Part shown: in pieces, positions 4,922 to 21,859 of the stretch
How positions within the stretch are numbered: position 1 is the stretch's first letter
How the letters are laid out: each line of letters starts with the position of its first letter
Notes under the pieces: generated by a model
Database searches by the model: none
Seen by the model: only the letters and a program-made list of their open reading frames with translations
What the model was told of the DNA's origin: nothing
From: a virus
UHGV virus genome: UHGV-0149790
DNA length: 21,903 nt
Direction: 5' to 3' (one strand)
Program-made: the position numbers and the translations under genes

Positions 4922-4965
4922 TTAACCGGCGCGTGACCTGCGCCAGTAACCAAGAGGAAAGACCA

Positions 4966-8191: not shown

Positions 8192-8372
8192 ATCGAGGCA
8201 GTGTGAAGCGCTACGTCGGGCCGGTGTCTTTTTCATGGAAAGGGCAGACGGCCATCCTAAAACGACGTGGGGCCATTTCCTGAACCCGATTAAATACCGC
8301 AACCAGCAGGAAGAGACGGTGCGGGAGGAAGAACCAGACTTCGGAGCTATCTTTAATGGCCGGAAAACGTAA
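8127..8372 (+). CDS. excisionase-like DNA-binding protein
   Basis: 81-aa ORF immediately upstream of and overlapping the integrase start; the ITREEMIELTG...ALRRAGVFF segment fits small winged-helix excisionases; positional support. Confidence 0.5.
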   Translation: MRHDHDIITREEMIELTGTPLKSRQCEALRRAGVFFMERADGHPKTTWGHFLNPIKYRNQQEETVREEEPDFGAIFNGRKT

Positions 8373-9372
8373 GAACCCCGCTGATAACTGGATGCCGCCC
8401 CGCGTGTATCGCGGTAAGGCGGCGTATGAATTCAGGAATAAAGATAACAAGGCTATCAGGCTATGTGCGCTCTCCGAGCCTCAATCAGCTGTATGGCTGG
8501 CATATGAAAAAGCCATGGGAGAAGAAGTCGAGCGCAAGACGTTTCAGGCTCTGGCCGATCAATTCATGTCTTCCCCTGACTGGCAGGATTTAGCGGCAGA
8601 AACCCGAAAAGACTACACGAAATACGCAGGCAAAGTGTTGCCGGTGTTCGGGAAGGTTAACCCCGATAAAATTAAACCGGAACACATCCGGCGCTATATG
8701 GATCAGCGTGGCATGGCCAGTAAAACGCAGGCCAACCGGGAAAAGAGTTTTCTTTCTCGGGTATTCCGCTGGGGTTATGAGCGGGGTTACGTCCAGCATA
8801 ATCCCTGTCAGGGCGTTAAGAAGTTCAAAGAGGCAGCCCGGGAGCGTTACATCACCGACGAAGAATACAAAGCGGTTTACGATGTTGCTCCAGACGTAGT
8901 TCGCGCCACCATGGAAATCGCTTATTTGTGTCTGGCCAGACAAAGCGATGTGCTGGCTTTGACTGAAGACCAGATACGCGAAACCGGGATCTTTATCCGC
9001 CAGGGGAAAACAGGCGTGAAGCAAATCAAAGCATGGTCGCCACGCCTGCGCGCCGCTGTCGCCCTCGCCCGTTCCCTGCCGTTAAAGCCGGGTATCCGTA
9101 GCCTGTTTGTCATTCACCAGACCAGCGGCAGCAAATACACCCGTGACGGTTTTAATTCACGCTGGCGCGACGCGAAAATCGCAGCGCAGGAAAAGAACCC
9201 ACACCTGCAGATAGATTTCACTTTCCACGATCTGAAAGCGAAAGGTGTCTCTGATCTGGAAGGAAGCCTCGAGGAGAAACAGGCGATTTCAGGCCATAAG
9301 AATTCGAGACAAACGGCGATTTACGACAGGAAAACTAAAATTGTGCCGGTTGTTGGTGGTCAGAAAAAATGA
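8356..9372 (+). CDS. int: tyrosine site-specific integrase (lambda Int family)
   Basis: 338 aa; C-terminal catalytic region with HDLKAKGVSD, GHKNSRQTAIY and the terminal Tyr; 3' end faces the att core 120 bp away. Confidence 0.9.
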   Translation: MAGKRKNPADNWMPPRVYRGKAAYEFRNKDNKAIRLCALSEPQSAVWLAYEKAMGEEVERKTFQALADQFMSSPDWQDLAAETRKDYTKYAGKVLPVFGKVNPDKIKPEHIRRYMDQRGMASKTQANREKSFLSRVFRWGYERGYVQHNPCQGVKKFKEAARERYITDEEYKAVYDVAPDVVRATMEIAYLCLARQSDVLALTEDQIRETGIFIRQGKTGVKQIKAWSPRLRAAVALARSLPLKPGIRSLFVIHQTSGSKYTRDGFNSRWRDAKIAAQEKNPHLQIDFTFHDLKAKGVSDLEGSLEEKQAISGHKNSRQTAIYDRKTKIVPVVGGQKK

Positions 9373-9696: not shown

Positions 9697-9936
9697 TTAT
9701 TCAGTCGCGCGGTACCACGATTGCCAGCGGTAGATATTCGTACGTAACTCCCGCACACACTCTGCTGACTGTGTATCCGCCAGCAGATCAGCGTCGCTAT
9801 CTGCGCCAGCGTTACTTATCTTGCACGGTCGGTTCATCAAATCCGGGGATGGCGTTGGCCGCGTCGATTGCTCGTTGGCGCAGCTGCACAGCAGCAGGAT
9901 CAAACTGGCACACAGTACGATTCGGGTCATTGACAT
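9697..9936 (-). CDS. Rz1-like o-spanin (outer-membrane lipoprotein), overlapping the Rz gene
   Basis: Signal-like N-terminus MSMTRIVLCASLILLLCSCANE with Cys near the cleavage region, Pro-rich mature part; out-of-frame overlap with Rz and extends past it. Confidence 0.5.
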   Translation of the reverse strand: MSMTRIVLCASLILLLCSCANEQSTRPTPSPDLMNRPCKISNAGADSDADLLADTQSAECVRELRTNIYRWQSWYRATE

Positions 9937-10171
9937 ATTTCACCACATCACGATAAACGGTACGGTAAATCACTTTGGCTTCGGCGTTCGCCGTCGCTGC
10001 TTTCTGCTCACCAGCGGCAACTGCCTTTTCCTGCTTCGGTAGCCTTTGTTTAGCCTGGCTGTTTACTTGCTCTGAATGTGCGTACCAGCCTTTCAGATAC
10101 CCCGCCCAGTAAATCCCGGCGCATACCGCCAGCACGCCACCAACAATCACCAGTTTGGTTTTTCCGTTCAT
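9812..10171 (-). CDS. Rz-like i-spanin
   Basis: N-terminal TM segment (KLVIVGGVLAVCAGIYWAGYL) then a charged, Ala/Gln-rich periplasmic domain; ATG at 10171 overlaps the endolysin stop (ATGA). Confidence 0.7.
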   Translation of the reverse strand: MNGKTKLVIVGGVLAVCAGIYWAGYLKGWYAHSEQVNSQAKQRLPKQEKAVAAGEQKAATANAEAKVIYRTVYRDVVKYVNDPNRTVCQFDPAAVQLRQRAIDAANAIPGFDEPTVQDK

Positions 10172-10704
10172 TCGTACAGCCCCCAGCACGTCAAAGCGCT
10201 TTCCTGATCGCGGCGGTCAACCTGCCCGTAGCAGCCATTCTTCTGGCCTTTGGTCAGTCGGCAATCCCGGCCTCCGTCGAACACCCATCGCCGGATCTCC
10301 GCGCATGCACCTTTACGGTCGCCTGCGTTCAGCTTGCGATAGAACGTTGAGGGGAAGCATTTACCCGGCCCGATGTTGTACGGGCAGAATGAGGCTATGC
10401 CGACCTTCTGCGGCGGCGTCAAAGAAACGAGCACATTCTTTTCTACCCAGGCAAGCGCCTTATCACGCTCAATGGCGTTTACCTTCCTGCACTGTTCCTC
10501 AGTTGCTCTTTGGCCCTTAATGACACGCTTGCCATCTATAACGGTTACTCCGTGGCACAATGACCACACACCGCCGGGGTCAACAACGGCCACCAGCGCG
10601 TTACCTTCTTTTTCGCTGATAAACTGATCGAACAGTATCGGTGCAGATGCACCGGCGGCCAGAAGCGCCAGCATAGCGGCGCTGAACTTAGCTTTGTTGC
10701 TCAT
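10168..10704 (-). CDS. SAR endolysin (T4-type lysozyme fold, phage 21 R-like)
   Basis: Start at 10704 ([25 protein letters not shown] = signal-anchor-release segment); catalytic-region pattern E...D...T and C-terminal [14 protein letters not shown]...ALTCWG resemble recalled R21; overlaps the holin 3' end. Confidence 0.85.
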
Positions 10705-10918
10705 AGTCCTGTGCCTTCCGCCGGTCGTCTTTGATTTTGAAGTACAAATTAGTGAGGTAGGTAAGCAGCCCAAAAACAATACTGGCCAGTACGCCAATAG
10801 CCGCCCACTGGCTGGGGCTTACCTTATCGAGAAGTTGCAGCAGCCAGTAGCTCCCGCTGACAGTGGATGTGATGTACGACGTGCCAGCCGCCACATCCGG
10901 TAAATTCTTCATTCGCAT
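10688..10918 (-). CDS. pinholin (class II holin, phage 21 S-like) with dual-start motif
   Basis: 76 aa; ...[43 protein letters not shown] matches recalled S21; starts Met-Arg-Met, the classic antiholin/holin dual start. Confidence 0.85.
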
Positions 10919-10989: not shown

Positions 10990-11000
10990 TAAATGAAATT

Positions 11001-11270
11001 CTATATTTGGAGTTTTCTTTTAAGTGATTCCTCTGCCTCTTCAAGAGGGCTTCCTGACCCAGAATACACAAAAGAATGGGTAAGCTCCCCACAGGAAAGA
11101 CAACCATCAATGCTAACTTTAAATGAAACAGTCGCTGTTCCATTATTTAGCGATATTAACGATACAGCCTGGTATTCAACTTCAATCGATGTATCTTCTG
11201 ATGGCATCCATACACCTAGCGTTGGATATGCTATAGATTTTCCTATGGTCTGCGTCACTCTGAAAGTCAT
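11001..11270 (-). CDS. hypothetical protein in an AT-rich island between tailspike and holin
   Basis: ATG at 11270 with GAGG 5 nt upstream, overlapping the tailspike stop; 89 aa, beta-rich; a plus-strand ORF (10993..11283) covers the same DNA, so strand is uncertain. Confidence 0.35.
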   Translation of the reverse strand: MTFRVTQTIGKSIAYPTLGVWMPSEDTSIEVEYQAVSLISLNNGTATVSFKVSIDGCLSCGELTHSFVYSGSGSPLEEAEESLKRKLQI

Positions 11271-11277
11271 ATTAGCC

Positions 11278-13797
11278 TCATGAATTAAAAGGAACAACAT
11301 AATCAAAAGTACACTGGAGAGTAAAATCAAAAGTACCAGCTGCTTGAGAATATATTTCTTGGGCTGACGATTTTATAATCGTCATTTGATTTGTCCCTGC
11401 AGGAACAAGCGGCATAACAAAAACTCCTGTAGCCGTGCTTAGAATTATGCTTCCTTTAGACCCACCCTCCTGTATTGAGGCGGCTGTAAAAGGAAGACCA
11501 CTAATGACTATGGCTCCCGCAGTACTAACCAGTAAAGAGGTTGATCTGACTCTTATATCGCAACGAACAACATCACCAAACCTACGGTAAATTCCAGTAA
11601 TGGATGATGGCGTTACGCTTGCCCCGCCAATTGTAATAGTTGGTGTGAATGAGCCATAAAGATACTTAAACTGAGCAGCATTACCACCGGGAAAAGCTAT
11701 TGGCGGCATATAGGCATCATTTCGATTAAAAACATACTTATCGGATAAATTTGTTCCGTTTAACTCCTGAAGACCGAAAAGACGATAGTTTGAATTATCT
11801 CCAAGCTTTCTTTGAGCAACTATATTCTCACCGGCACCGATTCTTGTGCCGTTAAATTCATTAACTGGGGCAGCCTGAACCGCGCCACCTTTTACAATAT
11901 CAAGGGCGAAAATATTTCCTCTTGTTGCCATCGCTGGAAATGTTGAAAGAGATGGTTCGTAGGGATCAACATTATTAACATTAAATCTATTTCCAGCAAC
12001 ATCACCAAGGCCATACTTGATGATTCCTACCCTTTCCAGTATAAGAGTCCTTATTTTACTGTTACCAACATATGATTTAAATCCGTCAACGAATTGAGCA
12101 GAGTGGTAGAATGGCGTTCTTGGAGACCACAGCACTTTAGCCTCACCAATATTGCAATGCAATATCTCCCTTCCCGGAAGTGAAATAATAGTTCTTGCGC
12201 GCCCAGCTATACCTCTATAGGTATCAACTGGGTAAACCCCATTCTGCTGATTATTTGACAACCGACCACCGCTGGCCGTAGGCAAGCAGTTTGCAGACTT
12301 GAAAACATACGTATCAAACCAAGTGTCAAGAGCGGCATATGCTGGATGTGTCCAGTCCATGCCGGTATCACCATAATAATGAAACTTGTCTACATGGTAC
12401 GAATCATTCCATCCCGCCCGATGAATATCTGATGCCGGGTACGGCGGAAGGTACTGAGACGCGTATGCATGATTTCTCGTTAGCCAGCGCCCGCCAAAAA
12501 CAGGGCCTGTAATATTATACCAATATAATGTCAGCCCAGTTTGCGCCAGAGAATCAGATCCTTGATAACAAGCAGGAATGGCACACCCTGAGTACATCAT
12601 ATTATTTTCTACACAGCGGTTTACAGTCCCGTCTACCCATTGCCCAATAAAGAATCCGCTAATCCTGAAATCAGAAAGGTGATACTTTATGTATTGATCT
12701 GGTCCGCTGTCACCTGCGATGTATAGACCCATGGAAGATGTATGATCCCATGGTCCCGCAGTTTTTGAAAAATTACCAATAATCCCACAATTGTGTTGGT
12801 TTTCACCAACAATCATTGAATCATCATAAACACGCAGTGCTGCTTTTGCCTTAACTGGTATTTCAGGAGCAATATTTGAATCACCGTTCCCTATCCACCC
12901 TGGGTATACAGTCCCATCGTCGAATGGCAAATTAAACTCTATCGGTGAAGATATGCACGGATACATTTTAGTTAAATATACCGGAAGGTTATTAGCTTTT
13001 CCGTAATCTATAGCTGCCTGTAGAAATTTAGTTGCATCAGCAGTGATGCCGTGAATATATCTTTCACCATTAATCCTTATCATTTCAGGGGTTACGTATT
13101 TTATTGCATCTTCAACGGTGCCTCCAGTAAGAACCCCTATATGCCCGCTACCTGTCGGTTTGGCATACTCAATCATTACATCTGCTGCACTTCCACTCGA
13201 AGGCAATACCATCAATGGATTGCCATTATTATCCATTGCAACGATTTTATTTTTTCGTTCTGCAATGGAAGGTAACGGTGTGATGCTAGACTCCGGAACG
13301 CGTAGAGTACGAGCTAGATTAATTTTTCCATTTTCAATTACAAATTTTTTAGTAGCTGCATCCTGATCGTTAACTGGATCGGCCAGATTTGCTATCCGGT
13401 AGCCGTTAGCGTTGAAAGGTCCACCGCCGAACAGCGGGCGACTTAGGGCCACTCCGAGATAAATAAACGCGCGCTGAGTAGCCATCCAGAGACGGTCAAA
13501 ATCTTTGTTAACTGTATCGGCCAGCAGGTCGCCGTTGTCCTGGTAATCAGTGAGCCTGTAAGTCGGCGTTACACGTTCAAAAATGACTGTAGCGCCATTG
13601 GCCGGCGCGGTCAGAAAAGTAACTTCGCCACCGCCAGTATTACCCACACCAGACACTGTATAGCCGGACGTTACTTCGTTGCCGTTGATTGTGACCTGAA
13701 TATCGCTGGCGCTGATCAGGTAAAACTCATAGGCAAAGACAGTCGTCAGCCCGTTGGCGGTATAGATGTTATAGGGTGTCTGGTTCGGTACCGACAT
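11278..13797 (-). CDS. tailspike / tail fibre with T7 gp17-like N-terminal adaptor domain and probable beta-helix depolymerase body
   Basis: 839 aa; N-terminal approx. 150 aa (...NANGYRIANLADPVNDQDAATKKFV) parallel recalled T7 gp17 (...RGRRIVNLANAVDDRDAVPFGQL); Gly/Asn/Ser/Thr-rich repetitive body typical of polysaccharide depolymerases. Confidence 0.8.
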   Translation of the reverse strand: MSVPNQTPYNIYTANGLTTVFAYEFYLISASDIQVTINGNEVTSGYTVSGVGNTGGGEVTFLTAPANGATVIFERVTPTYRLTDYQDNGDLLADTVNKDFDRLWMATQRAFIYLGVALSRPLFGGGPFNANGYRIANLADPVNDQDAATKKFVIENGKINLARTLRVPESSITPLPSIAERKNKIVAMDNNGNPLMVLPSSGSAADVMIEYAKPTGSGHIGVLTGGTVEDAIKYVTPEMIRINGERYIHGITADATKFLQAAIDYGKANNLPVYLTKMYPCISSPIEFNLPFDDGTVYPGWIGNGDSNIAPEIPVKAKAALRVYDDSMIVGENQHNCGIIGNFSKTAGPWDHTSSMGLYIAGDSGPDQYIKYHLSDFRISGFFIGQWVDGTVNRCVENNMMYSGCAIPACYQGSDSLAQTGLTLYWYNITGPVFGGRWLTRNHAYASQYLPPYPASDIHRAGWNDSYHVDKFHYYGDTGMDWTHPAYAALDTWFDTYVFKSANCLPTASGGRLSNNQQNGVYPVDTYRGIAGRARTIISLPGREILHCNIGEAKVLWSPRTPFYHSAQFVDGFKSYVGNSKIRTLILERVGIIKYGLGDVAGNRFNVNNVDPYEPSLSTFPAMATRGNIFALDIVKGGAVQAAPVNEFNGTRIGAGENIVAQRKLGDNSNYRLFGLQELNGTNLSDKYVFNRNDAYMPPIAFPGGNAAQFKYLYGSFTPTITIGGASVTPSSITGIYRRFGDVVRCDIRVRSTSLLVSTAGAIVISGLPFTAASIQEGGSKGSIILSTATGVFVMPLVPAGTNQMTIIKSSAQEIYSQAAGTFDFTLQCTFDYVVPFNS

Positions 13798-13814
13798 ACG
13801 AGGAACTCCGGCGG

Positions 13815-15425
13815 CTAGTAATCTACGGCGACCATGTGATCGCCATCATTTGGTTGCCAATGTTCCCGCGCCTGTGCGGTCGGAATCCCGACCAATTTAC
13901 CAATGCGCACTGGTGTTGAGCTGATTGCGCCAGAGCCAGAGTCGATAAAGTCATCTGGCTGATTAGTCAGCGCCGGGTTAAAGTCGCGCATCTGGTCATA
14001 CATTGGGCCGTCGAGCACGTCGGTATGCGCCCAGAGGAAGCGCGACGACAGCGGCGCTTCGAATGCATCGAGGATGCGCTTTTGTTTATTGGTCACGCTG
14101 AATTCTTCCCGTACGCCGCAGCCGGTACCCTTTAGTGCCTGAATCAGCAATTTCCCGGCAAAGCTGCCCGGGCCGTTCACCTCGACGCAGACCAGCGGGA
14201 TCTGGTATTTAAGCACCAGCTCTTTAATCTGCATCACCTGACCGCCGGTGATTTTGTCGTTGTCGTCGAATTCCGCCAGTTCGCCCGTAAGCCCCTGGCA
14301 AACATGCCAGTACAGATGCCCGCGTGCGTCGGTGAAAATCAGAGAGAACGCCGAGGCGTCGGCCTTAACTTTGCCGGTGGCCACATCCCACCAGGCAACA
14401 GCACCAACAATTTGCGTCTGGCCAAGCCACATCGAGCAGGAGCGGTTCGCGTACCGGATTTCAGGCTGTACGTTGTATTCGCGTATGCGGTCGGGATCGA
14501 GACGAACCTCGCCAACCGGTTTACTGTGCAGCTGGTACTGGCTGTCCCATTCGTTAATTGTGCGAGTCTCGCGACGGCGCTTTGTCATTTCCTCCGGAGT
14601 GAACCTTTCTGGCCATTCACAATCGGCGTAACAGTCAACCGTGGTGCCGGGAGCCTCGGCAAACTCGATACCGTCATCGTTAAGACGATAATCAACACCT
14701 TCAACGAGCAGTCGCGCGCCAATGTGAATACCGACGAAAACATATTCCGGCCGGAACGGTAACGAGTAACGGCTCGCGGTGGCCTGTTTTTCCTCGATTC
14801 TAAATTCTTTACCGAATAGTTTGATGGTCAGACAGTCGGCGCCCATAGATTCAACCTCATCGTAAAGGCTATCGTGGGTATGCGGCGTGCCGATAAACAG
14901 CTTTCGCCCGCCGGGGACAAGAATGTGTGTCTGTTCACCGAGACGATAACGCAGCTTTTCCCGCGCCTCTGGCGTCTGGATATTGCGGGGTACTTCTACG
15001 TCATCGTTCTGGCATTCATCAGCGCGGGCCGAGGTAACGTTAGAGAGGATCCCCTTTGCGTACATGCTGCCGTTACGCATATCCAGAGAGCCGTTAACCC
15101 ACCACTGTTCAACGGTTCCCTGTCCGTCCGGTAGCATGCCTTTGGTCAGTGGGTGATTGCGTAAAACGTTCTGCGTATCGCGGCTGGTTTTGTACGCGGT
15201 GCCGTCAGCTTCAGACTGGTGAAGAATGCGGTACTGGCGGTTCTGGTAATATCGCCATGCGTTATACACCGCCAGAATGGTAGATTTACCAAAGCCACGA
15301 AAACAGCGAAGCACCGCGAGATCCCCGCGGTGTTCCAACCAGTGGCAGGCTCGATAATGGCAGTCGGGAACCTCCCACCCCATCCGCTCCGCCCATATGA
15401 TGAAAAAGGCGACGAATGAAATCAT
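13815..15425 (-). CDS. terminase large subunit, T7 gp19 type
   Basis: 536 aa; CFRGFGKSTI (cf. T7 AFRGIGKSFI) and TSARADECQNDDVEVPRNIQTPEAREKL (cf. T7 [27 protein letters not shown]); start overlaps the upstream stop (ATGA). Confidence 0.9.
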   Translation of the reverse strand: MISFVAFFIIWAERMGWEVPDCHYRACHWLEHRGDLAVLRCFRGFGKSTILAVYNAWRYYQNRQYRILHQSEADGTAYKTSRDTQNVLRNHPLTKGMLPDGQGTVEQWWVNGSLDMRNGSMYAKGILSNVTSARADECQNDDVEVPRNIQTPEAREKLRYRLGEQTHILVPGGRKLFIGTPHTHDSLYDEVESMGADCLTIKLFGKEFRIEEKQATASRYSLPFRPEYVFVGIHIGARLLVEGVDYRLNDDGIEFAEAPGTTVDCYADCEWPERFTPEEMTKRRRETRTINEWDSQYQLHSKPVGEVRLDPDRIREYNVQPEIRYANRSCSMWLGQTQIVGAVAWWDVATGKVKADASAFSLIFTDARGHLYWHVCQGLTGELAEFDDNDKITGGQVMQIKELVLKYQIPLVCVEVNGPGSFAGKLLIQALKGTGCGVREEFSVTNKQKRILDAFEAPLSSRFLWAHTDVLDGPMYDQMRDFNPALTNQPDDFIDSGSGAISSTPVRIGKLVGIPTAQAREHWQPNDGDHMVAVDY

Positions 15426-15763
15426 TTTTTCCGCTGTTGTATGCGTTCGATAACTTCCTGTGCTGCCCGTTCAGCCGCAGATACCTGTTGCCCCAGGCGG
15501 AATGCTTCATCGTCCGGATCCTCGCCGGGTTTAGGCGTCCCCCCGCGCGTATGCATGCCAATCAGCGAATGGACTTTTACCAGCAGCGTCAGCGATGCGG
15601 CCGCGTTCTTCTTATGCCAGTACCGATCACCGCGTTCCTGTTTAGTGTGCTTTGTGATTTCCTTCCCTGCCCCCGGCCAGTTGTCCGGATCGGCTTCTTC
15701 CAGAACTACATCGGTGAGCTTATCGCTAAGAGCAGTAAGGCGAGTTTTGTAATCTGAATGCAT
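15422..15763 (-). CDS. putative terminase small subunit (positional inference)
   Basis: 113-aa ORF translationally coupled to the large terminase gene; no sequence signature recognised. Confidence 0.4.
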   Translation of the reverse strand: MHSDYKTRLTALSDKLTDVVLEEADPDNWPGAGKEITKHTKQERGDRYWHKKNAAASLTLLVKVHSLIGMHTRGGTPKPGEDPDDEAFRLGQQVSAAERAAQEVIERIQQRKK

Positions 15764-15811
15764 AAAAAAGCCCCGTGGTTATCCATAGAGCTATGATGTA
15801 TTCTTTTTGAG

Positions 15812-15825
15812 GTCGGAATCCTGAC
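15812..15825. repeat. 14-bp near-palindrome GTCGGAATCCTGAC (copy 2 of 2)
   Basis: One mismatch to the 10976-10989 copy, with shared flanks GGTC.GAATCCTGACTA; 48 nt upstream of the small-terminase start on the minus strand and 20 nt upstream of the plus-strand moron ORF. Confidence 0.6.
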
Positions 15826-15845
15826 TATCACAAGGAGTAAATAGA

Positions 15846-16364
15846 ATGAAGATATTAATTCCATTGTTGCTAATCTTTCACTTTGCAGCATTCGCATCAA
15901 CCGATTTAGTTGATGACTCTAAATATATCGTTCCTATATCCGGACCAGGAATACAGATTACCAATCCATATACCGACTATACGGTCATTAACGGTATCGA
16001 CACTGGTAAAAAAATTGAGATCCATGTATCGGTATTACACTTGCGAACCTATAAAGAAAACGCAGATTTTAGTGAAACTAATACTCACTATGTGGAAGGA
16101 AGTAAAACCATATCTAGTTACAATGCCAATGTTTACACAGACGATTTTATAAAATTTACATCAGAAGACGCTAAAAATTCAACATTGAAAAATTTAAGGG
16201 ATTTGTATTGTGCACCAGATGGATTTTACCCAGTGTCATCTCAAGAGCGGCTATTCTACGAAACCCGAAAAGAAAATAAAAAAATAATGATCAATTACTA
16301 CAGTGATTCAGGGAAAACCCTCATGTTTGGGTTTGGGGTTTCCCCCGAATCATGTAAGTCGTAA
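15846..16364 (+). CDS. secreted or periplasmic protein of unknown function encoded by an AT-rich moron, opposite in orientation to the late operon
   Basis: 172 aa; AAGGAG RBS 9 nt upstream; signal peptide MKILIPLLLIFHFAAFAS; markedly AT-rich, wedged between two minus-strand late genes. Confidence 0.7.
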   Translation: MKILIPLLLIFHFAAFASTDLVDDSKYIVPISGPGIQITNPYTDYTVINGIDTGKKIEIHVSVLHLRTYKENADFSETNTHYVEGSKTISSYNANVYTDDFIKFTSEDAKNSTLKNLRDLYCAPDGFYPVSSQERLFYETRKENKKIMINYYSDSGKTLMFGFGVSPESCKS

Positions 16365-16367
16365 TAG

Positions 16368-19262
16368 CTATCGCATTCCCGGATCAACCTGATTAAGCAG
16401 TGGGGCAATCCAGAACAGGTTATTACCCGGCAGTAACGTACGCACACTATGCAAAACACGATCGCCGGCATCGCCGTTAAGCACGCCGGCGGTCACATCA
16501 GTAACGGTATCCAGCAGGCCGAAGGTTGGCCCTAGCGCAGAACCGATAAAGCCACGGCTGGCGTAACGGGACTGCGTACCGGTACCGAGCAATGGCCCGA
16601 GCCCTATCATCCCACCGGATGCCTTTTCCGCCATGTTGTTGTATTCCATCAGCGGGCCGAGAATACCAGAGCGGTCGATGCCCTCGATTACCATTTTCTG
16701 CGGAGTCAAATCAACCTCCCGGCCGTTGGCCGCCTGCTTAAGCGCATAGGTCAGTGAACCAAGGCCAATCTGGAAGGCGGTACCGTAATAGAACTGCGCG
16801 GTACCTTCCTGCAGGCCGCCGAGCGTCGCGCGGTTATAGGATGCCGTAGCAAAAGACTTAAACTGGAATACGGTTTTTCCCAACGGGGTGCTGGCCCACA
16901 ACGGCGTGTCACCGATACCCGGCGTGATAACGGTATTGTTTACATCCTTGAGCACAGCAGATTGCAGAAGTCCAGCGGCGTACTGGTCATCCCATTTTTC
17001 GAAATTGCCGATATGCCAGCCCTGAATAACTTCACCGTGCCTCTGAAATTCTCGCTGGATGCGTTCGGCCATATTCTCGTTGATGCCGAGTTTTGCCAGG
17101 CGCTTCGCAGGGAACGCGCCGGACAGAATACCGTCGGACGTGATCATGCCATTCACCGATTTGTTCATATCGTCAAAGTGGCCCATCATGGTCAACTTGC
17201 CGAACACATCAGTAATACGTTCCATGCCAGCTTCTGCAGCTGTCGTACGAGAAGAGCTATCGACCAGATCCCCCATAGTACGCGCGCGGGTATGCAGTAT
17301 GGTTTCCAGCCCAACGGCCATTTTCTTCTGCTCCGCCCGGCTGGCGAGATAAGCCGGAGAGCGGGTGATCAGTGCGCCATATCCACGCATGGTATTGCTG
17401 AAGCCGTTAACCATCATGCCGCGCGCCAGATCCGGGATAGCGGATACCGTCATGCCGCCGAGTTTCGTTACAAAGTTGGCGCTACGCAGGAAAGCACCAG
17501 CGCGAACGAAAAATGATGATGGGTCATCCGGCATACCGTAGGTACCGACGAGGCGATCGCGAAGCGCCAGAATATCGCGCAGGTCGGCTTCGCGCGCCTT
17601 CGCCAGCTTTTCCTGTTCTGCTGGGCGTAAACGCATCAGCGCGTCGTATTCGTCCTGGATGGCGGCGAGCTGCGAATCCAGCGACTTGTTGCCGAACGTA
17701 CGGGTTAATTCGATCTCCGCTGAGGCTTCGCGGATATGACGCTGCAGGACGTAATTTGCATCACTCTCCAGATAATCTTTCATCAGGCGATCGGGGACGC
17801 TCAACGTTCGCGATTTGGTGCTACCTGGTGCTTTCACCATGAAGACGTTGGCGAACTCCTGCGGAATTTTGGCCCCGACGATACGGTTAATCGTGGTATC
17901 GGCGGCGATTTCGGCATCTTCGCGGGACATGGTTTTTTCACCACGTGACCACCAGTCAACCAGCATATTGCGGAATTTATCGCGCTCGCTAACAATTTTC
18001 CCTACCTTGTACACGCGAGGGAAATAGCTGGTCTGCCCCATCGCTTTCAGTTCGGCATCCGGCGGAAGCAAACCCAGCTCCTGCTGTGCCGTCTTCACGC
18101 GGTTAATGACTGTGCGCATTGCCTGCGCTGCTTCCTGCACTTTCGCATTAACGTGCACGTCGCCGTTACGCAGCGCCTCGCCGACCTGTTCACGGAAAGC
18201 CGTATGACCCAGATCGCCGCCTTCAGCTTTATACTGAGTGTATGCCTGCTTATTCGCAGTAACGACGGCCGCCTCTTCGCGGCGCCAACCACGTACGCGC
18301 GTCTCGGCAGCTACCGGAGTTTCGATACCGCGCAGGTTTCCTTCCAGCGTGAAGTTATTCTCCGCTAGCTCCAGCGCTGTCCGGCGCGCTTCTTTTGACG
18401 GGGATTCCATCAGTCGGGTGATCGGCGTGAGATAGCTACCGGCTTTTTTAGCCAGCTTGCCAAGCGGGCCGCCAGACACCGGCGTGAGGTCTTCCAGTGT
18501 AGCTTCGCGAATACGCATGGCGCCGACGCTGCCACCGTTCGGTAAAGTATCCGCCAGGGCGTCTGCTGCGTTGTTAATCGTTGGCGAGACGTTCATATTA
18601 TCGAGCGCCTCTGCCACTTCACGCGTGGCCGCGTTTCTTACCGCTGGAGTGATCATCGCGCCAGCAGTGGCGAATACACCGCTTAGAAGTGCGCCGGCTG
18701 TGATGTGTGCTGCGCTCTCCCTGGCGGTTCTGGTGTACTGCTCGTTATTGAGCGCTACCTCGCTAAGTGCGGTACCGGCGGCGCCAATAGCAACCTGAGA
18801 ACCAATACGCGCAGCCAGGCTTCCCTGCGCACCGGGAATAAACATTGATGCTACTGTGATAGGGTCAAGCATGCCAGACGCAATATTCGCTAAAGTTCCG
18901 CCCCATCCTGCCTCAGCAGTAACGCGCCTATCTTCATTTTCTTCATCAATCTGGTTTTTAATCCAGGCGGTTTCCTCTGGGGATTTTGAATCAGCGAAGG
19001 CAGATCCCCATTGTTCGTACCCCTTTAGTTCGTTTTTATCAGAATAAGGGTTATACCCCTCCGCTGTCTCGAACTGTTTAGCCGGGCGGAACACTCCGGC
19101 CAGCAGGTTATTCTGACGAAAAGCGGCATCCCATACAGACGGTTGCTGTTGCAGCGGCTCCGGGTTAGTTCCTTCAGGCAGAGAGACATCAAAACCAGTT
19201 GGCGCCTGAAGAGCATTATCCATTACGCTCGGTGGAACATCAGATTGCGGATAGATCGGCAT
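16368..19262 (-). CDS. large virion structural protein (internal core / ejection-protein-like)
   Basis: 964 aa, Gly/Ala-rich, coupled to the upstream virion protein gene (1-nt overlap); located where T7/SP6-like phages encode internal virion proteins; no specific motif recognised. Confidence 0.55.
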   Translation of the reverse strand: MPIYPQSDVPPSVMDNALQAPTGFDVSLPEGTNPEPLQQQPSVWDAAFRQNNLLAGVFRPAKQFETAEGYNPYSDKNELKGYEQWGSAFADSKSPEETAWIKNQIDEENEDRRVTAEAGWGGTLANIASGMLDPITVASMFIPGAQGSLAARIGSQVAIGAAGTALSEVALNNEQYTRTARESAAHITAGALLSGVFATAGAMITPAVRNAATREVAEALDNMNVSPTINNAADALADTLPNGGSVGAMRIREATLEDLTPVSGGPLGKLAKKAGSYLTPITRLMESPSKEARRTALELAENNFTLEGNLRGIETPVAAETRVRGWRREEAAVVTANKQAYTQYKAEGGDLGHTAFREQVGEALRNGDVHVNAKVQEAAQAMRTVINRVKTAQQELGLLPPDAELKAMGQTSYFPRVYKVGKIVSERDKFRNMLVDWWSRGEKTMSREDAEIAADTTINRIVGAKIPQEFANVFMVKAPGSTKSRTLSVPDRLMKDYLESDANYVLQRHIREASAEIELTRTFGNKSLDSQLAAIQDEYDALMRLRPAEQEKLAKAREADLRDILALRDRLVGTYGMPDDPSSFFVRAGAFLRSANFVTKLGGMTVSAIPDLARGMMVNGFSNTMRGYGALITRSPAYLASRAEQKKMAVGLETILHTRARTMGDLVDSSSRTTAAEAGMERITDVFGKLTMMGHFDDMNKSVNGMITSDGILSGAFPAKRLAKLGINENMAERIQREFQRHGEVIQGWHIGNFEKWDDQYAAGLLQSAVLKDVNNTVITPGIGDTPLWASTPLGKTVFQFKSFATASYNRATLGGLQEGTAQFYYGTAFQIGLGSLTYALKQAANGREVDLTPQKMVIEGIDRSGILGPLMEYNNMAEKASGGMIGLGPLLGTGTQSRYASRGFIGSALGPTFGLLDTVTDVTAGVLNGDAGDRVLHSVRTLLPGNNLFWIAPLLNQVDPGMR

Positions 19263-21859
19263 TATTCATTGCTCCATGAAAAGTAGTTTTTAACCCGGTT
19301 CATACGGTCATCGTGCAAACGCTGATATTGCTCATCGAGCGCTCGGTGTTTTTCCTTAAAGCCTCGAATATCTTTCCCGCGTGATAATTCCTCTTCGCCT
19401 TGCTGTTCCCGCTCCTGCTGCATTTTTTTATACGGTTCCCAGTCTTCCAGCGACGGTTTCCAGCGCATCGGACGCCTGAATTTATCGTAATATGGCTGTA
19501 CGCTCTCGTTACCATCTTTATCTTTCATGCGAACCATAATGGCGTAGTCACCGTTACGCGTGGTTAAAACGTCAGGGGTAATTTCCAGTTCACCACCGAT
19601 TTGGGATTCAGGTGTATTTGATGTAATAACGGGCGCTGAACCTGATGTAATACCCAGTTGGGTCGGGCTGGTTTCAAATTTTTCTCCACGTTCGCCATAG
19701 GTCAGACGCTCTTTCTCTTCTTTCCACTGCGCAGCCTGCCAACCAGAAGGCCCGTAGTTATAAAGTGCTTCAGGCGCGTATTTCATAAACTGGGCGCTGC
19801 CGTTCACATCGCTAAGACTCCAGGTACGCGCGATCTGGGTATTGGTCATCTTTTTGGCAACATCGGCATTACCACCCGAGTTGCGATAATTGATGTCATA
19901 AAGCGACTGGTAGTCGTTACGGAAATTGACGGCGTTAAGATTCTGGTCATCTGCTGCAGGACCGCCAAAGCTGTACCACGGTTTCATGCTACTGACTGCG
20001 GAATCCATCGCGCTGGCACGCTCTTTTTTGTATTCCTTCGTGCTCTGCGTAGAAGACAATTGTGATTTAAGGGCATCAGTCTGGTTATAGGTAACGTTCT
20101 GCGCCTGCTTCACTGCTTCGTCTGACGCCATGCCGGAATCGGTAAGTTGTTTAACGGTCAGGTAAAAGCTTTGCATGTCCTTTGGCATATCGCCCACAGA
20201 GGCAGGATCTGTTTCGTACAGCGCGTTAAATAATGTCGAGCCCTGCTTAACCACGCCGGGGCTGCTGGAACGGGCGATCGCATTCAGTTGCGATGTAACT
20301 TGCGATGGGATAATGCCGGTCTGGTTAACCTGCTGCACGATGGCGTCGTGAGTGGTGGCGTCGTTAATGCGGAAGTTAAGCGCCGATGGCGTATTGTCCG
20401 CCGCCCTCTGCATAGATTTATTGCTCGGGTCGAGTTTCTCGCCGGAGAGCAGCGCATCGTTAAAGCGGGCGGAGTCGCGCTGCGCCTGAATATTGGCGTT
20501 GCTCTTCTGCACCAGCGCGCTAAGTTTGCCGTGTGCATCAAGTTTTAGCGCAAAATCGGGATCGTTTGCCTGCGGCTTCACCTTCGCCAGTTCGGCCTGC
20601 TGTTCTGCCGGGGTGGCGTACTGAATAGCCTGGAAGGTTCTGGCGTTATCAATCGCGATATCCAGCTGCTTGACCGCTGTTTGCCCCTGCTCACCATACG
20701 CAAACAAAATGGTGGAGGCGTTCGGCATAGCATCCGGCACCTCGCCGTTATACAGCTGCGCCATTGTATTATTGAGAATCGGGTCAATCTGCTGGCGCAG
20801 CGCCGTACGCTGCTGCCGGATCTGCGCTTCGGCGATATTGTCGATTTTGTTTACTGCTACCGGGTCGAGACCGGTTTTATTTTTGTTGTAACGGGACAAC
20901 CAACCGCGCGTTTCTGCGGGCAGCTGCTTAACGAAATCCGCCATCGAGATTTCGCCTTTGCGCGGGTCGCCCACTTTGGCGATCAGTTTATCGACGTTAC
21001 CCATCCCCCAGTTATACGCGGCCCCGGCCAGTGGTTCTGACTGGTATTTTTTACTGAGCTGCCCGGCATAATCACGCGCCAGCTGCGCATGCTGCACAGG
21101 ATCGTCCGGGTTGTATTCCACGCCACGTTTAGCCGCCAGTTCTTTCCCTGTGTCCGGCATCAACTGAAATTCACCCTGCGCGCCAGCGGGCGATGTAACA
21201 AGACTACCATCCGCATTGCGGTGCTTACCACCGGACTCCACCAGGCCAACGGCGCGCATATCGAGTTCGCCGGTGCTGCTGTTAATCAACGTAAAATCGC
21301 CATTCAGCCAGCCAGTGGGATTGGTTACCGCGTAGTTCTGCGCGCGCTGCTCCAGCGCTTTTTGGTTCGCTTCTGATACCGCCGCGTCGATGCGCTCCTG
21401 CGGCCAGCCACGCGCCTGGCCATACATCTCGATCGAGTGTTTACGGGCGCTACGTATCAGCCCTGCCTGCATCGGATTATCGTATGCGCTGGCCTCTTGT
21501 TCGACGGAAGTGGTCACCGTCGCATTAAGCTGCTGCCGCTGGGCCTCATCCGTCTGTGCACGCTCGAAACCGCTGTAGGTACTTGTCCGGCGTACCTGCC
21601 CTGCTTTCCACTGCGCATCAAAATAGTTTAACTGGTTGGGCGGTACGCGCTTCCGCGCTTCCTCGTAATCGCCAGCGTCGGCCTTATCCATATCGGTTAC
21701 CACACCGGACGATTTAAAGCCCTGACGAGTGACCGTGGCGCCCGTCTCCGGGTTTTCCCAGCGGTCATTAGATTTAGCTTCCAGATCAGTCAGAATCGCC
21801 TGCGTGGCTGCCACATCGGCTTTATCCTGCTCATGCTGTACTTGTTCTGGATCATGCAC
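19262..21859 (-). CDS. internal virion protein with lytic transglycosylase (SLT) domain
   Basis: 865 aa; SLT signature ESGGKHRNADG...GAQGEFQLMPDTG...AYNWGMGNV about 200-300 aa from the N-terminus; probable GTG start at 21859, two codons after an in-frame TGA. Confidence 0.75.
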   Translation of the reverse strand: MHDPEQVQHEQDKADVAATQAILTDLEAKSNDRWENPETGATVTRQGFKSSGVVTDMDKADAGDYEEARKRVPPNQLNYFDAQWKAGQVRRTSTYSGFERAQTDEAQRQQLNATVTTSVEQEASAYDNPMQAGLIRSARKHSIEMYGQARGWPQERIDAAVSEANQKALEQRAQNYAVTNPTGWLNGDFTLINSSTGELDMRAVGLVESGGKHRNADGSLVTSPAGAQGEFQLMPDTGKELAAKRGVEYNPDDPVQHAQLARDYAGQLSKKYQSEPLAGAAYNWGMGNVDKLIAKVGDPRKGEISMADFVKQLPAETRGWLSRYNKNKTGLDPVAVNKIDNIAEAQIRQQRTALRQQIDPILNNTMAQLYNGEVPDAMPNASTILFAYGEQGQTAVKQLDIAIDNARTFQAIQYATPAEQQAELAKVKPQANDPDFALKLDAHGKLSALVQKSNANIQAQRDSARFNDALLSGEKLDPSNKSMQRAADNTPSALNFRINDATTHDAIVQQVNQTGIIPSQVTSQLNAIARSSSPGVVKQGSTLFNALYETDPASVGDMPKDMQSFYLTVKQLTDSGMASDEAVKQAQNVTYNQTDALKSQLSSTQSTKEYKKERASAMDSAVSSMKPWYSFGGPAADDQNLNAVNFRNDYQSLYDINYRNSGGNADVAKKMTNTQIARTWSLSDVNGSAQFMKYAPEALYNYGPSGWQAAQWKEEKERLTYGERGEKFETSPTQLGITSGSAPVITSNTPESQIGGELEITPDVLTTRNGDYAIMVRMKDKDGNESVQPYYDKFRRPMRWKPSLEDWEPYKKMQQEREQQGEEELSRGKDIRGFKEKHRALDEQYQRLHDDRMNRVKNYFSWSNE

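What the first reader, a model, noticed from the sequence alone, without database searches (positions are those of the whole stretch)
15764..16367. AT-rich moron encoding a secreted protein, inserted in reverse orientation inside the packaging/virion operon
The 172-aa product has a classic signal peptide and no similarity I recognise. It is strongly AT-rich relative to its flanks, has its own strong RBS and a palindromic element 20 nt upstream, and is wedged between two minus-strand late genes with only 3 nt separating the convergent stop codons. These features suggest a lysogenic-conversion gene such as a periplasmic effector, exclusion protein or virulence factor.
Basis: partly seen in the sequence, partly recalled or inferred. 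Interest (0 to 1): 0.6.

Follow-up and report, generated by a model that had tools for sequence, protein, structure and literature searches.

The report
Phage cargo gene for periplasmic protein
A temperate T7-like phage of Klebsiella-type bacteria carries, in a swap-in slot next to its DNA-injection genes, a conserved gene for an uncharacterised periplasmic protein that is predicted to fold like a secretion-system pilotin and may block infection by rival phages, although that function is untested.

Summary
A 172-aa ORF (15846-16364, +) with a Sec signal peptide has 35% GC against 54-56% in its flanks. It has an AAGGAG ribosome-binding site, and its stop lies 3 nt from the convergent stop of a gp16-like ejection-protein gene.

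It is a real gene: dN/dS is 0.10-0.22 and homologues occur in Salmonella, Klebsiella, Citrobacter, E. coli, Proteus and Providencia prophages.

It is also a real insertion. A related Enterobacter prophage has an empty 68-nt site, and others carry unrelated cargo there (two other small secreted proteins and an Acyl_transf_3 acyltransferase).

It is not a cargo-specific operator.

The family has no Pfam, NCBIfam or PADLOC match. An AlphaFold2 model (pLDDT 78.7) matches PA3611 and the AspS/EpsS type II secretion pilotins. Two invariant cysteines lie where AspS has its disulfide.

In every context read, the gene sits convergent to the last ejection-protein gene. That is the position of sieA in P22.

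Best guess (about 0.35): a prophage-expressed periplasmic superinfection-exclusion protein. Expression and function are untested, and no promoter was found.

The parts
15846..16364 (+). Cargo CDS, 172 aa including the stop codon. It is the precursor of a periplasmic protein of an uncharacterised family (phrog_8033).
   Evidence: ORF listing. GC 0.355. dN/dS 0.10-0.22 against homologues. 24-33 homologous clusters in Enterobacterales. AlphaFold2 model with pLDDT 78.7. Fold matches to PA3611, AspS and EpsS.
15846..15896 (+). Predicted Sec signal peptide (residues 1-17, MKILIPLLLIFHFAAFA, cleavage A-F-A|S).
   Evidence: Read from the sequence and a hydropathy calculation. It is conserved in the closest homologues. 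More distant members have a longer N-terminal hydrophobic anchor instead. No SignalP run was possible.
16209..16355 (+). Stretch bounded by the two family-invariant cysteine codons, Cys122 (16209-16211) and Cys170 (16353-16355). Together they are a putative disulfide linking the end of helix alpha2 to the C-terminal helix.
   Evidence: Invariant in alignments A1-A4. Also conserved in the remote Raoultella relative. The topology matches the AspS Cys74-Cys111 disulfide described in PMC3542185. Proximity in the model could not be measured.
15832..15837 (+). Shine-Dalgarno sequence AAGGAG, 8 nt upstream of the ATG. It also marks the left edge of the cargo-specific DNA.
   Evidence: Boundary taken from the comparison of slot variants.
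15832..16367 (.). Cargo cassette (about 536 bp). This DNA is absent from the empty-slot relative and is replaced by other cargo in other relatives.
   Evidence: Junction comparison of the window with L001, L003, L013, L015 (empty), L017 and L018.
15811..15826 (.). Backbone boundary hairpin GGTCGGAATCCTGACT.
   Evidence: Perfect 6-bp stem in the empty-slot relative L015. Present at the cargo boundary in all slot variants. In the cargo-sense RNA it is predicted to form a stem-loop whose extension pairs with part of the SD (z -2.84). Nearly invariant among six relatives, so covariation cannot be judged.
15764..15791 (-). Backbone hairpin followed by a U6 run, immediately before the ATG of the 113-aa gene on the late strand. 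It looks like a terminator and is not part of the cargo.
   Evidence: Compensatory stem variants occur in relatives: GCCCC/GGGGC in L003 and GCCCTGTA/TACAGGGC in L027.
16368..19262 (-). Neighbour: gp16-like internal virion (ejection) protein gene, 964 aa, convergent with the cargo.
   Evidence: phrog_342 and phrog_16310. Constant partner of the family in all contexts read.
15422..15763 (-). Neighbour: 113-aa gene that overlaps the terL start. It is a probable small terminase subunit, inferred from position only.
   Evidence: phrog_9277, function unknown. ATGA overlap with terL.

Best explanation
Shown. The ORF is a real, horizontally exchanged cargo gene, a moron in the broad sense. It sits in a defined cargo slot of a temperate podovirus that has a T7-type ejection module and terminase. 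The slot lies between the stop codon of the last ejection-protein gene (gp16-like) and a conserved backbone hairpin ahead of the terminase genes. The product carries a Sec signal peptide. In distant relatives it carries an N-terminal membrane anchor instead. It has two invariant cysteines.

Predicted. The mature protein is a small alpha/beta domain in the periplasm. It has the fold of PA3611 and of the AspS/EpsS type II secretion pilotins, including a disulfide at the equivalent place. That fold is known as a module that binds a peptide segment of an envelope protein, not as an enzyme.

Inferred (about 0.35). The gene is expressed from the prophage, against the direction of the silent late operon. 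Its product would act as a superinfection-exclusion factor. It would capture or mis-assemble a component of an incoming phage's ejection machinery in the periplasm. Candidate targets are the gp14-like, SLT-gp15-like and gp16-like proteins that must cross the periplasm. The outcome would be blocked DNA entry, as with P22 SieA, which occupies the same genomic position, or T4 Spackle.

Confidence by part: about 0.9 that it is a real exported cargo protein; about 0.6 for the pilotin-like fold; about 0.35 for the exclusion mechanism.
For: Real gene:
- dN/dS is 0.10-0.22.
- 24 and 33 homologous clusters were found in two searches. Only 17 clusters at 50% identity appear among 1.84e9 proteins.

Insertion and slot:
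- L015 has an empty 68-nt site.
- L001 and L017 carry unrelated secreted proteins. L018 carries an Acyl_transf_3 gene. L013 and L016 carry a remote relative (hhalign E 2.5e-5, both cysteines kept).
- All variants share the same junctions.

Export: signal peptide or membrane anchor plus invariant Cys122 and Cys170.

Fold:
- Foldseek independently ranks 3npd, 4ftf and 6i2v first, with probabilities 1.00, 0.94 and 0.92.
- The order of secondary-structure elements and the cysteine positions match the published AspS description.

Link to the ejection module:
- In every context read, the gene is convergent with the last ejection-protein gene and 0-35 nt downstream of it, while the other neighbour varies.
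- This is the arrangement of gene 16 and sieA in P22.
- SieA blocks the ejection-protein conduit (PMC10883804).

Expression hint: in the Klebsiella loci (L005-L007) the gene directly follows, and overlaps, a ribbon-helix-helix repressor gene that is divergent from arc and ant homologues. TL-2011b (L002) has a similar layout, with a 90-nt gap, only a weak Arc match (E 0.1) and unverified arc/ant identities. This resembles the mnt side of P22 immI.

Divergence: the family diverges much faster than the adjacent gp16-like gene (30% against 73% identity between the window and L011).
Against: - There are no expression or phenotype data.
- No sigma-70-like promoter or terminator lies near the ORF. 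The cassette begins at its ribosome-binding site, so transcription must start in backbone DNA.
- Cargo type does not co-vary with the ejection protein. Phages with 94-95% identical gp16-like proteins carry a remote relative (L013) or unrelated cargo (L001), and the phage with an empty slot (L015) has a gp16-like protein as similar to the window's (81%) as that of the same-family Salmonella phage (82%). The function is therefore dispensable and not tied to one ejectosome allele.
- The slot also holds an acyltransferase, so position alone indicates 'envelope-directed accessory gene', not specifically a block on ejection.
- The fold model rests on 26 sequences, and the Foldseek E-value is only 0.017.
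- There is no sequence-level relation to AspS, to SieA or to any PADLOC model.
Confidence: 0.35

Rival explanations
1. A host-directed lysogenic-conversion factor. A soluble or inner-membrane-tethered pilotin-like protein binds a host envelope protein, for example the C-terminal S-domain of a secretin or another outer-membrane protein precursor. This would alter secretion, surface structures or virulence. It might indirectly remove a receptor or route used by other phages.
For: The closest folds are secretin-binding pilotins and the periplasmic non-lipoprotein PA3611. The protein is exported. Other cargos in the same slot are also directed to the envelope, including an Acyl_transf_3 protein of the kind used for surface-polysaccharide modification. 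Cargo identity is independent of the ejection-protein allele.
Against: The family occurs in hosts with different secretin sets (Salmonella, Klebsiella, Proteus, Providencia, E. coli). Its only constant partner is the phage ejection module. No family member was seen outside a prophage. There is no lipobox, no T2SS gene neighbourhood and no PF16549 match.
Confidence: 0.25
2. A periplasmic immunity-type protein against peptidoglycan-degrading enzymes that are not part of a superinfecting phage. An example would be orphan immunity to type VI secretion effectors from competing bacteria.
For: It is small, periplasmic and probably disulfide-bonded, as many such immunity proteins are. The unrelated cargo in the same slot of an E. 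coli prophage gives a weak match to Rap1a immunity proteins (E 0.036, below the Pfam cut-off). One family member gives a weak Imm42 match (E 0.0044).
Confidence: 0.08
3. A lytic-cycle accessory protein that acts in the periplasm, for example in lysis timing or envelope remodelling before release. It would be expressed during infection rather than in lysogens.
For: It is embedded in the late region. No lysogeny-type promoter could be identified. The predicted leader stem-loop would partly mask the ribosome-binding site, which suggests regulated translation.
Against: It is antisense to the late operon, so late transcripts cannot encode it. It is absent or replaced in close relatives with 94-95% identical structural genes, so it is not needed for growth. 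In other phages it lies in the immI-like accessory block next to repressor and antirepressor genes.
Confidence: 0.1
4. A spurious ORF or decaying remnant with no function.
For: No annotated function anywhere, no promoter found, and AT-rich DNA.
Against: The chance of an open frame of this length at this composition is about 3e-6. dN/dS is 0.10-0.22. Ten residues are invariant down to 24-30% identity. The AlphaFold2 core is confident. The gene is present in hundreds of assemblies.
Confidence: 0.01

Closest known systems
P22 SieA (superinfection exclusion A)
   Same: Same genomic position and orientation. SieA lies immediately downstream of, and convergent with, the last ejection-protein gene, and in P22 it is next to the mnt-arc-ant immI region and the tailspike gene. 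The Klebsiella members of this family, and apparently TL-2011b, have the same layout. SieA is prophage-expressed, envelope-located and blocks the ejection-protein conduit (PMC10883804).
   Different: No sequence similarity. SieA is annotated and described as an inner-membrane protein with several hydrophobic segments. This protein is a soluble or singly anchored periplasmic alpha/beta domain. The ejection proteins involved are T7 gp14/15/16-like, not P22 gp7/20/16. Exclusion activity has not been tested here.
AspS/EpsS (GspS-beta, Pfam PF16549 T2SSS_2) type II secretion pilotins and P. aeruginosa PA3611
   Same: Best structural matches by two methods. The order of beta-hairpin, helices, beta4-beta5 and C-terminal helix is the same. 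A cysteine pair lies where AspS has the disulfide that ties alpha4 to alpha2. Like PA3611, this protein is periplasmic and not a lipoprotein. A variable insert sits after the first strands, where PA3611 has an extra helix.
   Different: No detectable sequence relation. No PF16549 hit for any of 26 members. hhalign against E. coli YghG is not significant. There is no lipobox and no link to T2SS genes. The gene is phage-borne. The window subfamily has a 29-residue insert that is modelled with low confidence.
T4 Spackle (gp61.3)
   Same: A small phage-encoded periplasmic protein made with a signal peptide. It blocks superinfection by binding a virion-borne cell-wall hydrolase of the incoming phage (PMC7677548). 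The phages here deliver an SLT-domain ejection protein.
Classical morons of lambdoid phages (for example HK97 and lambda accessory genes)
   Same: An extra gene between conserved backbone genes. It has deviant base composition and opposite orientation. It is absent from, or replaced in, close relatives.
   Different: No promoter or terminator of its own could be detected. The cassette starts at its ribosome-binding site and ends 3 nt before the neighbour's stop codon.

Membership tests
Moron (autonomous accessory gene in a phage backbone) | Gene absent from the same site in closely related genomes | tested here: met
   Empty 68-nt site in L015. Unrelated cargos in L001, L017 and L018 between the same junctions.
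Moron (autonomous accessory gene in a phage backbone) | Base composition different from the backbone | tested here: met
   GC 0.355 against 0.54-0.56 in the five backbone genes measured. GC3 0.34 against 0.54-0.63.
Moron (autonomous accessory gene in a phage backbone) | Own promoter and terminator flanking the gene | tested here: not met
   No sigma-70 consensus promoter or intrinsic terminator in 15300-16800. Counts over 11000-17500 are no higher than in shuffles. Cargo-specific DNA starts at the SD. The scans are simple consensus scans, so weak or factor-dependent promoters are not excluded.
Moron (autonomous accessory gene in a phage backbone) | Expressed from the repressed prophage | not testable with these tools
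   Needs strand-specific RNA-seq or reporter fusions in a lysogen.
AspS/EpsS pilotins (Pfam PF16549 T2SSS_2) and PA3611 | Match to the family profile | tested here: not met
   None of 26 members hits PF16549 even at E up to 10. E. coli YghG hits it at 1.3e-16. hhalign of A4 against YghG gives probability 0.06.
AspS/EpsS pilotins (Pfam PF16549 T2SSS_2) and PA3611 | Alpha/beta fold: beta-strands, then alpha2 and alpha3 across beta4-beta5, then a C-terminal helix | tested here: met
AspS/EpsS pilotins (Pfam PF16549 T2SSS_2) and PA3611 | Conserved disulfide linking helix alpha2 to the C-terminal helix | tested here: inconclusive
   Invariant Cys122 lies directly after the long helix 107-121. Invariant Cys170 lies in the terminal helix 167-170. 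This matches the description of Cys74-Cys111 in AspS.
AspS/EpsS pilotins (Pfam PF16549 T2SSS_2) and PA3611 | Lipoprotein signal (AspS/EpsS) and T2SS gene neighbourhood | tested here: not met
   The cleavage site is A-F-A|S with no lipobox cysteine. All contexts read are prophages with no T2SS genes. PA3611 also lacks a lipobox.
P22 SieA-type superinfection exclusion | Sequence similarity to SieA | tested here: not met
   hhalign probability is 1%.
P22 SieA-type superinfection exclusion | Gene immediately downstream of, and convergent with, the last ejection-protein gene | tested here: met
   P22 layout. The window and all family contexts read share it.
P22 SieA-type superinfection exclusion | Blocks DNA entry by related phages; escape mutations map to ejection proteins | not testable with these tools
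   Needs plating, potassium-efflux or DNA-entry assays and selection of escape mutants.
T4 Spackle-type periplasmic inhibitor | Fold or sequence similarity to Spackle | tested here: not met
T4 Spackle-type periplasmic inhibitor | Binds and inhibits the virion-borne cell-wall hydrolase | not testable with these tools
Needs binding and activity assays with the SLT domain.
Known anti-phage defence proteins (PADLOC-DB) | Match to any PADLOC model | tested here: not met
   No hit at E up to 0.1.

The most novel reading that the evidence does not exclude
This is the founding member of a new class of prophage superinfection-exclusion proteins. A secretin-pilotin-like periplasmic domain would have been recruited by temperate podoviruses to trap the T7-type ejection proteins (gp14/15/16-like) of incoming phages as they cross the periplasm. 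It would be carried in a dedicated exchangeable slot next to the ejection genes, making it a periplasmic counterpart of the inner-membrane protein SieA.
Probability: 0.3. Interest if true: 0.65.

Novelty: new member of a known kind. Interest (0 to 1): 0.42.

Why it matters
How short-tailed phages build their DNA conduit across the periplasm is poorly understood, and so is how resident prophages sabotage it. P22 SieA is the only short-tailed-phage exclusion protein of this kind with a described mechanism.

A small soluble periplasmic protein that is always encoded beside T7-type ejection genes would be a tractable tool for studying that conduit. It would also be relevant to phage therapy against Klebsiella, Salmonella and E. 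coli, because such prophages are common there. One close variant was indexed in 456 blocks of the assembly collection, all named Salmonella enterica where a name was given. Another variant is present in 36 of 5426 complete E. coli genomes.

Independently of function, the analysis defines a precise cargo-exchange slot, with empty and alternative states. That slot can be mined for other envelope-directed accessory genes.

If the protein has no exclusion activity, it is simply one more conserved hypothetical moron.

Tried and rejected
- Megablast of the locus against 50,697 phage records gave no match.
- E. coli genomes matched only the flanks.
- Pfam, NCBIfam and PADLOC gave nothing for the ORF. 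A scan of all 26 family members against Pfam at E up to 10 gave only scattered single chance hits.
- A profile search of PDB sequences gave only a chance OprF hit at E 0.15.
- The first AlphaFold2 run used 21 close homologues and was unusable (pLDDT 50.1). It became usable only after adding 24-33% identical members found by the exhaustive profile search.
- The AFDB50 Foldseek library was not available.
- BFVD gave no informative viral match (best E 0.074, uncharacterised proteins).
- Direct homology to SieA was rejected. Homology to E. coli AspS/YghG was also rejected.
- The idea that cargo type tracks the C-terminus of the gp16-like protein was rejected. That C-terminus is 88-95% identical whatever the cargo.
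- The idea that the upstream palindrome is a cargo-specific operator was rejected. It is present at the empty site.
- Covariation in the leader stem could not be assessed, because the region is 87% identical across six relatives.
- Rfam found no RNA family in the window.
- The Rap1a-like hint for the alternative E. coli cargo is below threshold and is treated only as a lead.
Full report
**1. The observation**

The window holds an ATG-initiated ORF at 15846-16364 (+) of 172 codons, ending in TAA.
- Its GC content is 0.355 and its GC3 is 0.341. The five backbone genes measured lie at GC 0.54-0.56 and GC3 0.54-0.63.
- At this composition, an open frame of 172 codons has a probability of about 3e-6.
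- AAGGAG lies at 15832-15837, 8 nt before the ATG.
- The N-terminus, MKILIPLLLIFHFAAFA|STD, has a basic start, a 15-residue hydrophobic core and an A-x-A site. It is the only strongly hydrophobic segment of the protein.
- The TAA is 3 nt from the stop (16368-16370) of a 964-aa minus-strand gene.
- On the other side, 82 nt away, a 113-aa minus-strand gene starts and overlaps terL.

The one qualification is the "palindrome" GGTCGGAATCCTGAC(T) at 15811-15826. It is imperfect, and the repeat finder missed it at seed 6.

**2. The surrounding element**

The neighbours belong to a T7-type virion and packaging module.
- An SLT-containing gp15-like protein is encoded at 19262-21859.
- A gp16-like internal virion protein is encoded at 16368-19262 (phrog_342).
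- A T7-type large terminase is encoded at 13815-15425 (PF22530).
- A tailspike is encoded at 11278-13797.
- A holin-lysozyme-spanin cassette follows.

The left part of the window encodes an integrase, a cI-like repressor and replication proteins. The phage is therefore a temperate podovirus.

The window is identical to an ENA metagenome contig of 21,903 bp, in which the integrase gene abuts the lysis genes. Other assemblies hold the same phage integrated beside yecA. The exact protein and its 90% cluster come from Klebsiella oxytoca, K. grimontii and K. quasipneumoniae.

**3. It is a real, conserved gene**

- A word-indexed search of 5.8e9 proteins found 24 clusters.
- An exhaustive HMMER profile search of 1.84e9 representatives found only 17 clusters at 50% identity.
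- A second profile search found 33 clusters at 90% identity.
- All clusters that carry an organism name are from Enterobacterales: Salmonella, Klebsiella, Citrobacter, E. coli phage TL-2011b, Superficieibacter, Providencia and Proteus. All named ones are called "hypothetical protein".
- Pairwise dN/dS is 0.10-0.22.
- Ten residues are invariant down to 24-30% identity, including Cys122 and Cys170.
- Close relatives keep the cleavable signal peptide. More distant ones have a longer N-terminal hydrophobic anchor followed by a linker, and they lack a 29-residue insert. Both forms place the conserved domain in the periplasm.
- There is no match in Pfam, NCBIfam or PADLOC. The ORF belongs to phrog_8033, which has no known function.

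**4. It is an insertion in a defined cargo slot**

I fetched genomes that encode relatives of the gp16-like protein and compared the DNA between its stop codon and the 113-aa gene.
- Enterobacter sichuanensis (L015) has nothing there. Sixty-eight nucleotides hold a perfect hairpin (GGTCGG-GATT-CCGACC) and then a second hairpin with a U6 run directly before the ATG of the 113-aa gene.
- Every other variant keeps both elements. Its cargo sits exactly between the gp16-like stop and the first hairpin.
- The window and Salmonella carry this family.
- Raoultella (L013, L016) carries a 145-aa secreted protein. It is a remote relative (hhalign E 2.5e-5, both cysteines aligned).
- An E. coli prophage (L001) carries an unrelated 130-aa secreted protein.
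- Trabulsiella (L017) carries an unrelated 106-aa secreted protein on the late strand.
- L018 carries a 372-aa Acyl_transf_3 protein.

It is not something the cargo brought along.

Cargo-specific DNA begins at the ribosome-binding site (about 15832) and ends at 16367. The cassette therefore carries no promoter of its own.

Consensus scans found no sigma-70-like promoter or intrinsic terminator near it, and no excess over shuffles in 11000-17500.

In the cargo-sense RNA, the hairpin is predicted to survive through G-U pairs. Its extension is predicted to pair with part of the Shine-Dalgarno sequence (z -2.84). The region is too invariant among relatives to test by covariation.

**5. Predicted structure**

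An AlphaFold2 run with 21 close homologues failed (pLDDT 50). Adding the divergent members gave pLDDT 78.7 and pTM 0.72, with the core above 90.
- Foldseek independently ranked 3npd, 4ftf and the V. vulnificus pilotin EpsS (6i2v) first. Their probabilities were 1.00, 0.94 and 0.92, with modest E-values of 0.017-0.085.
- The published AspS description is: alpha1, then beta1-3, then alpha2 and alpha3 lying across beta4-beta5, then alpha4. A conserved Cys74-Cys111 disulfide ties alpha4 to alpha2, and it is also present in PA3611 (PMC3542185).
- This corresponds to the model's hairpin 45-63, helices 107-121 and 133-142, strands 146-152 and 159-165, and helix 167-170. The invariant Cys122 follows alpha2 and the invariant Cys170 lies in the last helix.
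- Like PA3611, this protein is not a lipoprotein.
- There is no sequence-level relation to the AspS family.

I therefore describe it as having a pilotin-like fold, not as a member of that family.

**6. Constant genomic partner**

In every context read, the gene lies 0-35 nt downstream of, and convergent with, the last large ejection-protein gene (937-1133 aa).
- These contexts are Salmonella, the window phage, Klebsiella, TL-2011b, Superficieibacter, Providencia, Proteus and two metagenomic phages.
- The neighbour on the other side changes. It may be terminase genes, a ribbon-helix-helix repressor with divergent arc and ant homologues, or Bro-N, pRha or ORF6N genes.
- This is the arrangement in P22: gene 16, then convergent sieA, then mnt | arc ant, then the tailspike gene.
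- SieA is a prophage-expressed inner-membrane protein that blocks the ejection-protein conduit. Its escape mutations map to the C-terminal regions of gp16 and gp20 (PMC10883804).
- In the Klebsiella loci the family gene overlaps the 3' end of the Mnt-like repressor gene. In TL-2011b it follows a putative repressor gene after a 90-nt gap. Both suggest co-expression in lysogens.
- The family shows no sequence similarity to SieA.

**7. Most likely function**

The best-supported reading is that the protein is exported to the periplasm of the lysogen and acts there as a binding module.

Three observations point to a superinfection-exclusion factor aimed at the incoming T7-type ejection machinery. 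The gene is tightly and anciently linked to the ejection module. It sits in the sieA-like position. It diverges faster than the adjacent structural gene (30% against 73% identity for the same pair of genomes). Exclusion could work by trapping a segment of gp14/15/16-like proteins. It could also work, as T4 Spackle does (PMC7677548), by neutralising the virion-borne SLT hydrolase.

I give this about 0.35.

The main counter-evidence is as follows.
- Cargo identity does not track the gp16-like sequence. Backbones that are 94-95% identical carry a remote relative or unrelated cargo, and a slot can be empty.
- No promoter was found.
- Nothing about expression or phenotype is known.

The rivals are:
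- a host-directed pilotin-like factor that binds a host envelope protein (0.25);
- a lytic-cycle periplasmic accessory protein (0.1);
- immunity against foreign cell-wall hydrolases such as T6SS effectors (0.08);
- a spurious ORF (0.01, effectively excluded).

**8. Novelty and verdict**

What is demonstrated is an ordinary kind of object: a phage moron that encodes an exported protein of unknown function. The gene family is uncharacterised and narrow.

Three points are new here. The cargo slot is precisely defined, with its empty and alternative states. The palindrome is reinterpreted as a backbone element. A pilotin/PA3611-like fold is predicted for a gene at the sieA-equivalent position.

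These make a concrete, testable exclusion hypothesis but do not establish it. Interest is moderate.

Noticed in passing
window 15764-15791 (minus strand): On the late strand, a hairpin followed by U6 directly abuts the ATG of the 113-aa terminase-side gene. It is conserved in relatives with compensatory stem changes (GCCCC/GGGGC in L003; GCCCTGTA/TACAGGGC in L027; also at the empty slot in L015). This is a terminator-like element inside the late operon. It suggests antitermination or RNA processing between the ejection genes and the terminase genes.
   Followed up: partly
window 11001-11330 (-): A second AT-rich small ORF (GC 0.385) lies directly after the tailspike gene. It is 109 aa from TTG, and it is called as 89 aa in L019 5156-5425. 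It has no Pfam match. It may be another cargo gene or a tailspike accessory gene. The tailspike gene as a whole is also AT-rich (GC 0.44; the 13000-13450 stretch reads 0.42-0.45).
   Followed up: no
window 8356-9372 (+) and 9697-10918 (-); L019 and L022: In the window, the integrase gene is adjacent to the lysis cassette. That is the attP or circular-form junction. Other metagenome contigs show the same phage integrated next to yecA. The phage therefore appears in both excised and integrated states in public data.
   Followed up: partly
window 4933-7164 (+), around 5640-5700: The 743-aa early-region ORF contains a run of nine Ser-Thr (ST) pairs, encoded by a short tandem DNA repeat. This is a possible slippage-prone tract.
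   Followed up: no
L001 6519-6911 (E. coli 23GD11002 prophage): The same slot holds an unrelated 130-aa secreted protein with two cysteines. It gives a sub-threshold match to Rap1a T6SS immunity proteins (E 0.036). It is worth a structure prediction of its own.
   Followed up: partly
L018 4410-5528 (record titled Pseudomonas lundensis): The slot holds a 372-aa Acyl_transf_3 gene (GC 0.37), the kind of enzyme used for surface-polysaccharide acetylation. The flanking phage genes are 85% identical to the enterobacterial ones. That is odd for a Pseudomonas record and may mean contamination or recent transfer. terL there appears broken into fragments.
   Followed up: no
L003 1-319 (Salmonella prophage): A PipA/GogA/GtgA-family (PF07108) type III effector-like gene lies just beyond the lysis cassette of the related Salmonella prophage.
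   Followed up: no
L019 16628-17080: A GNAT acetyltransferase gene sits inside the virion module of this phage, between the nozzle gene and a 162-aa gene at the position of the gp14-like gene. The region lies outside the window.
   Followed up: no
P0027, P0030, P0033 (database proteins): Some predicted family members continue past the usual C-terminal cysteine into a translation of the antisense strand of the gp16-like 3' end (for example ...YPEQVITG). These are stop-codon losses or gene-calling artefacts at the 0-3 nt convergent junction.
   Followed up: no
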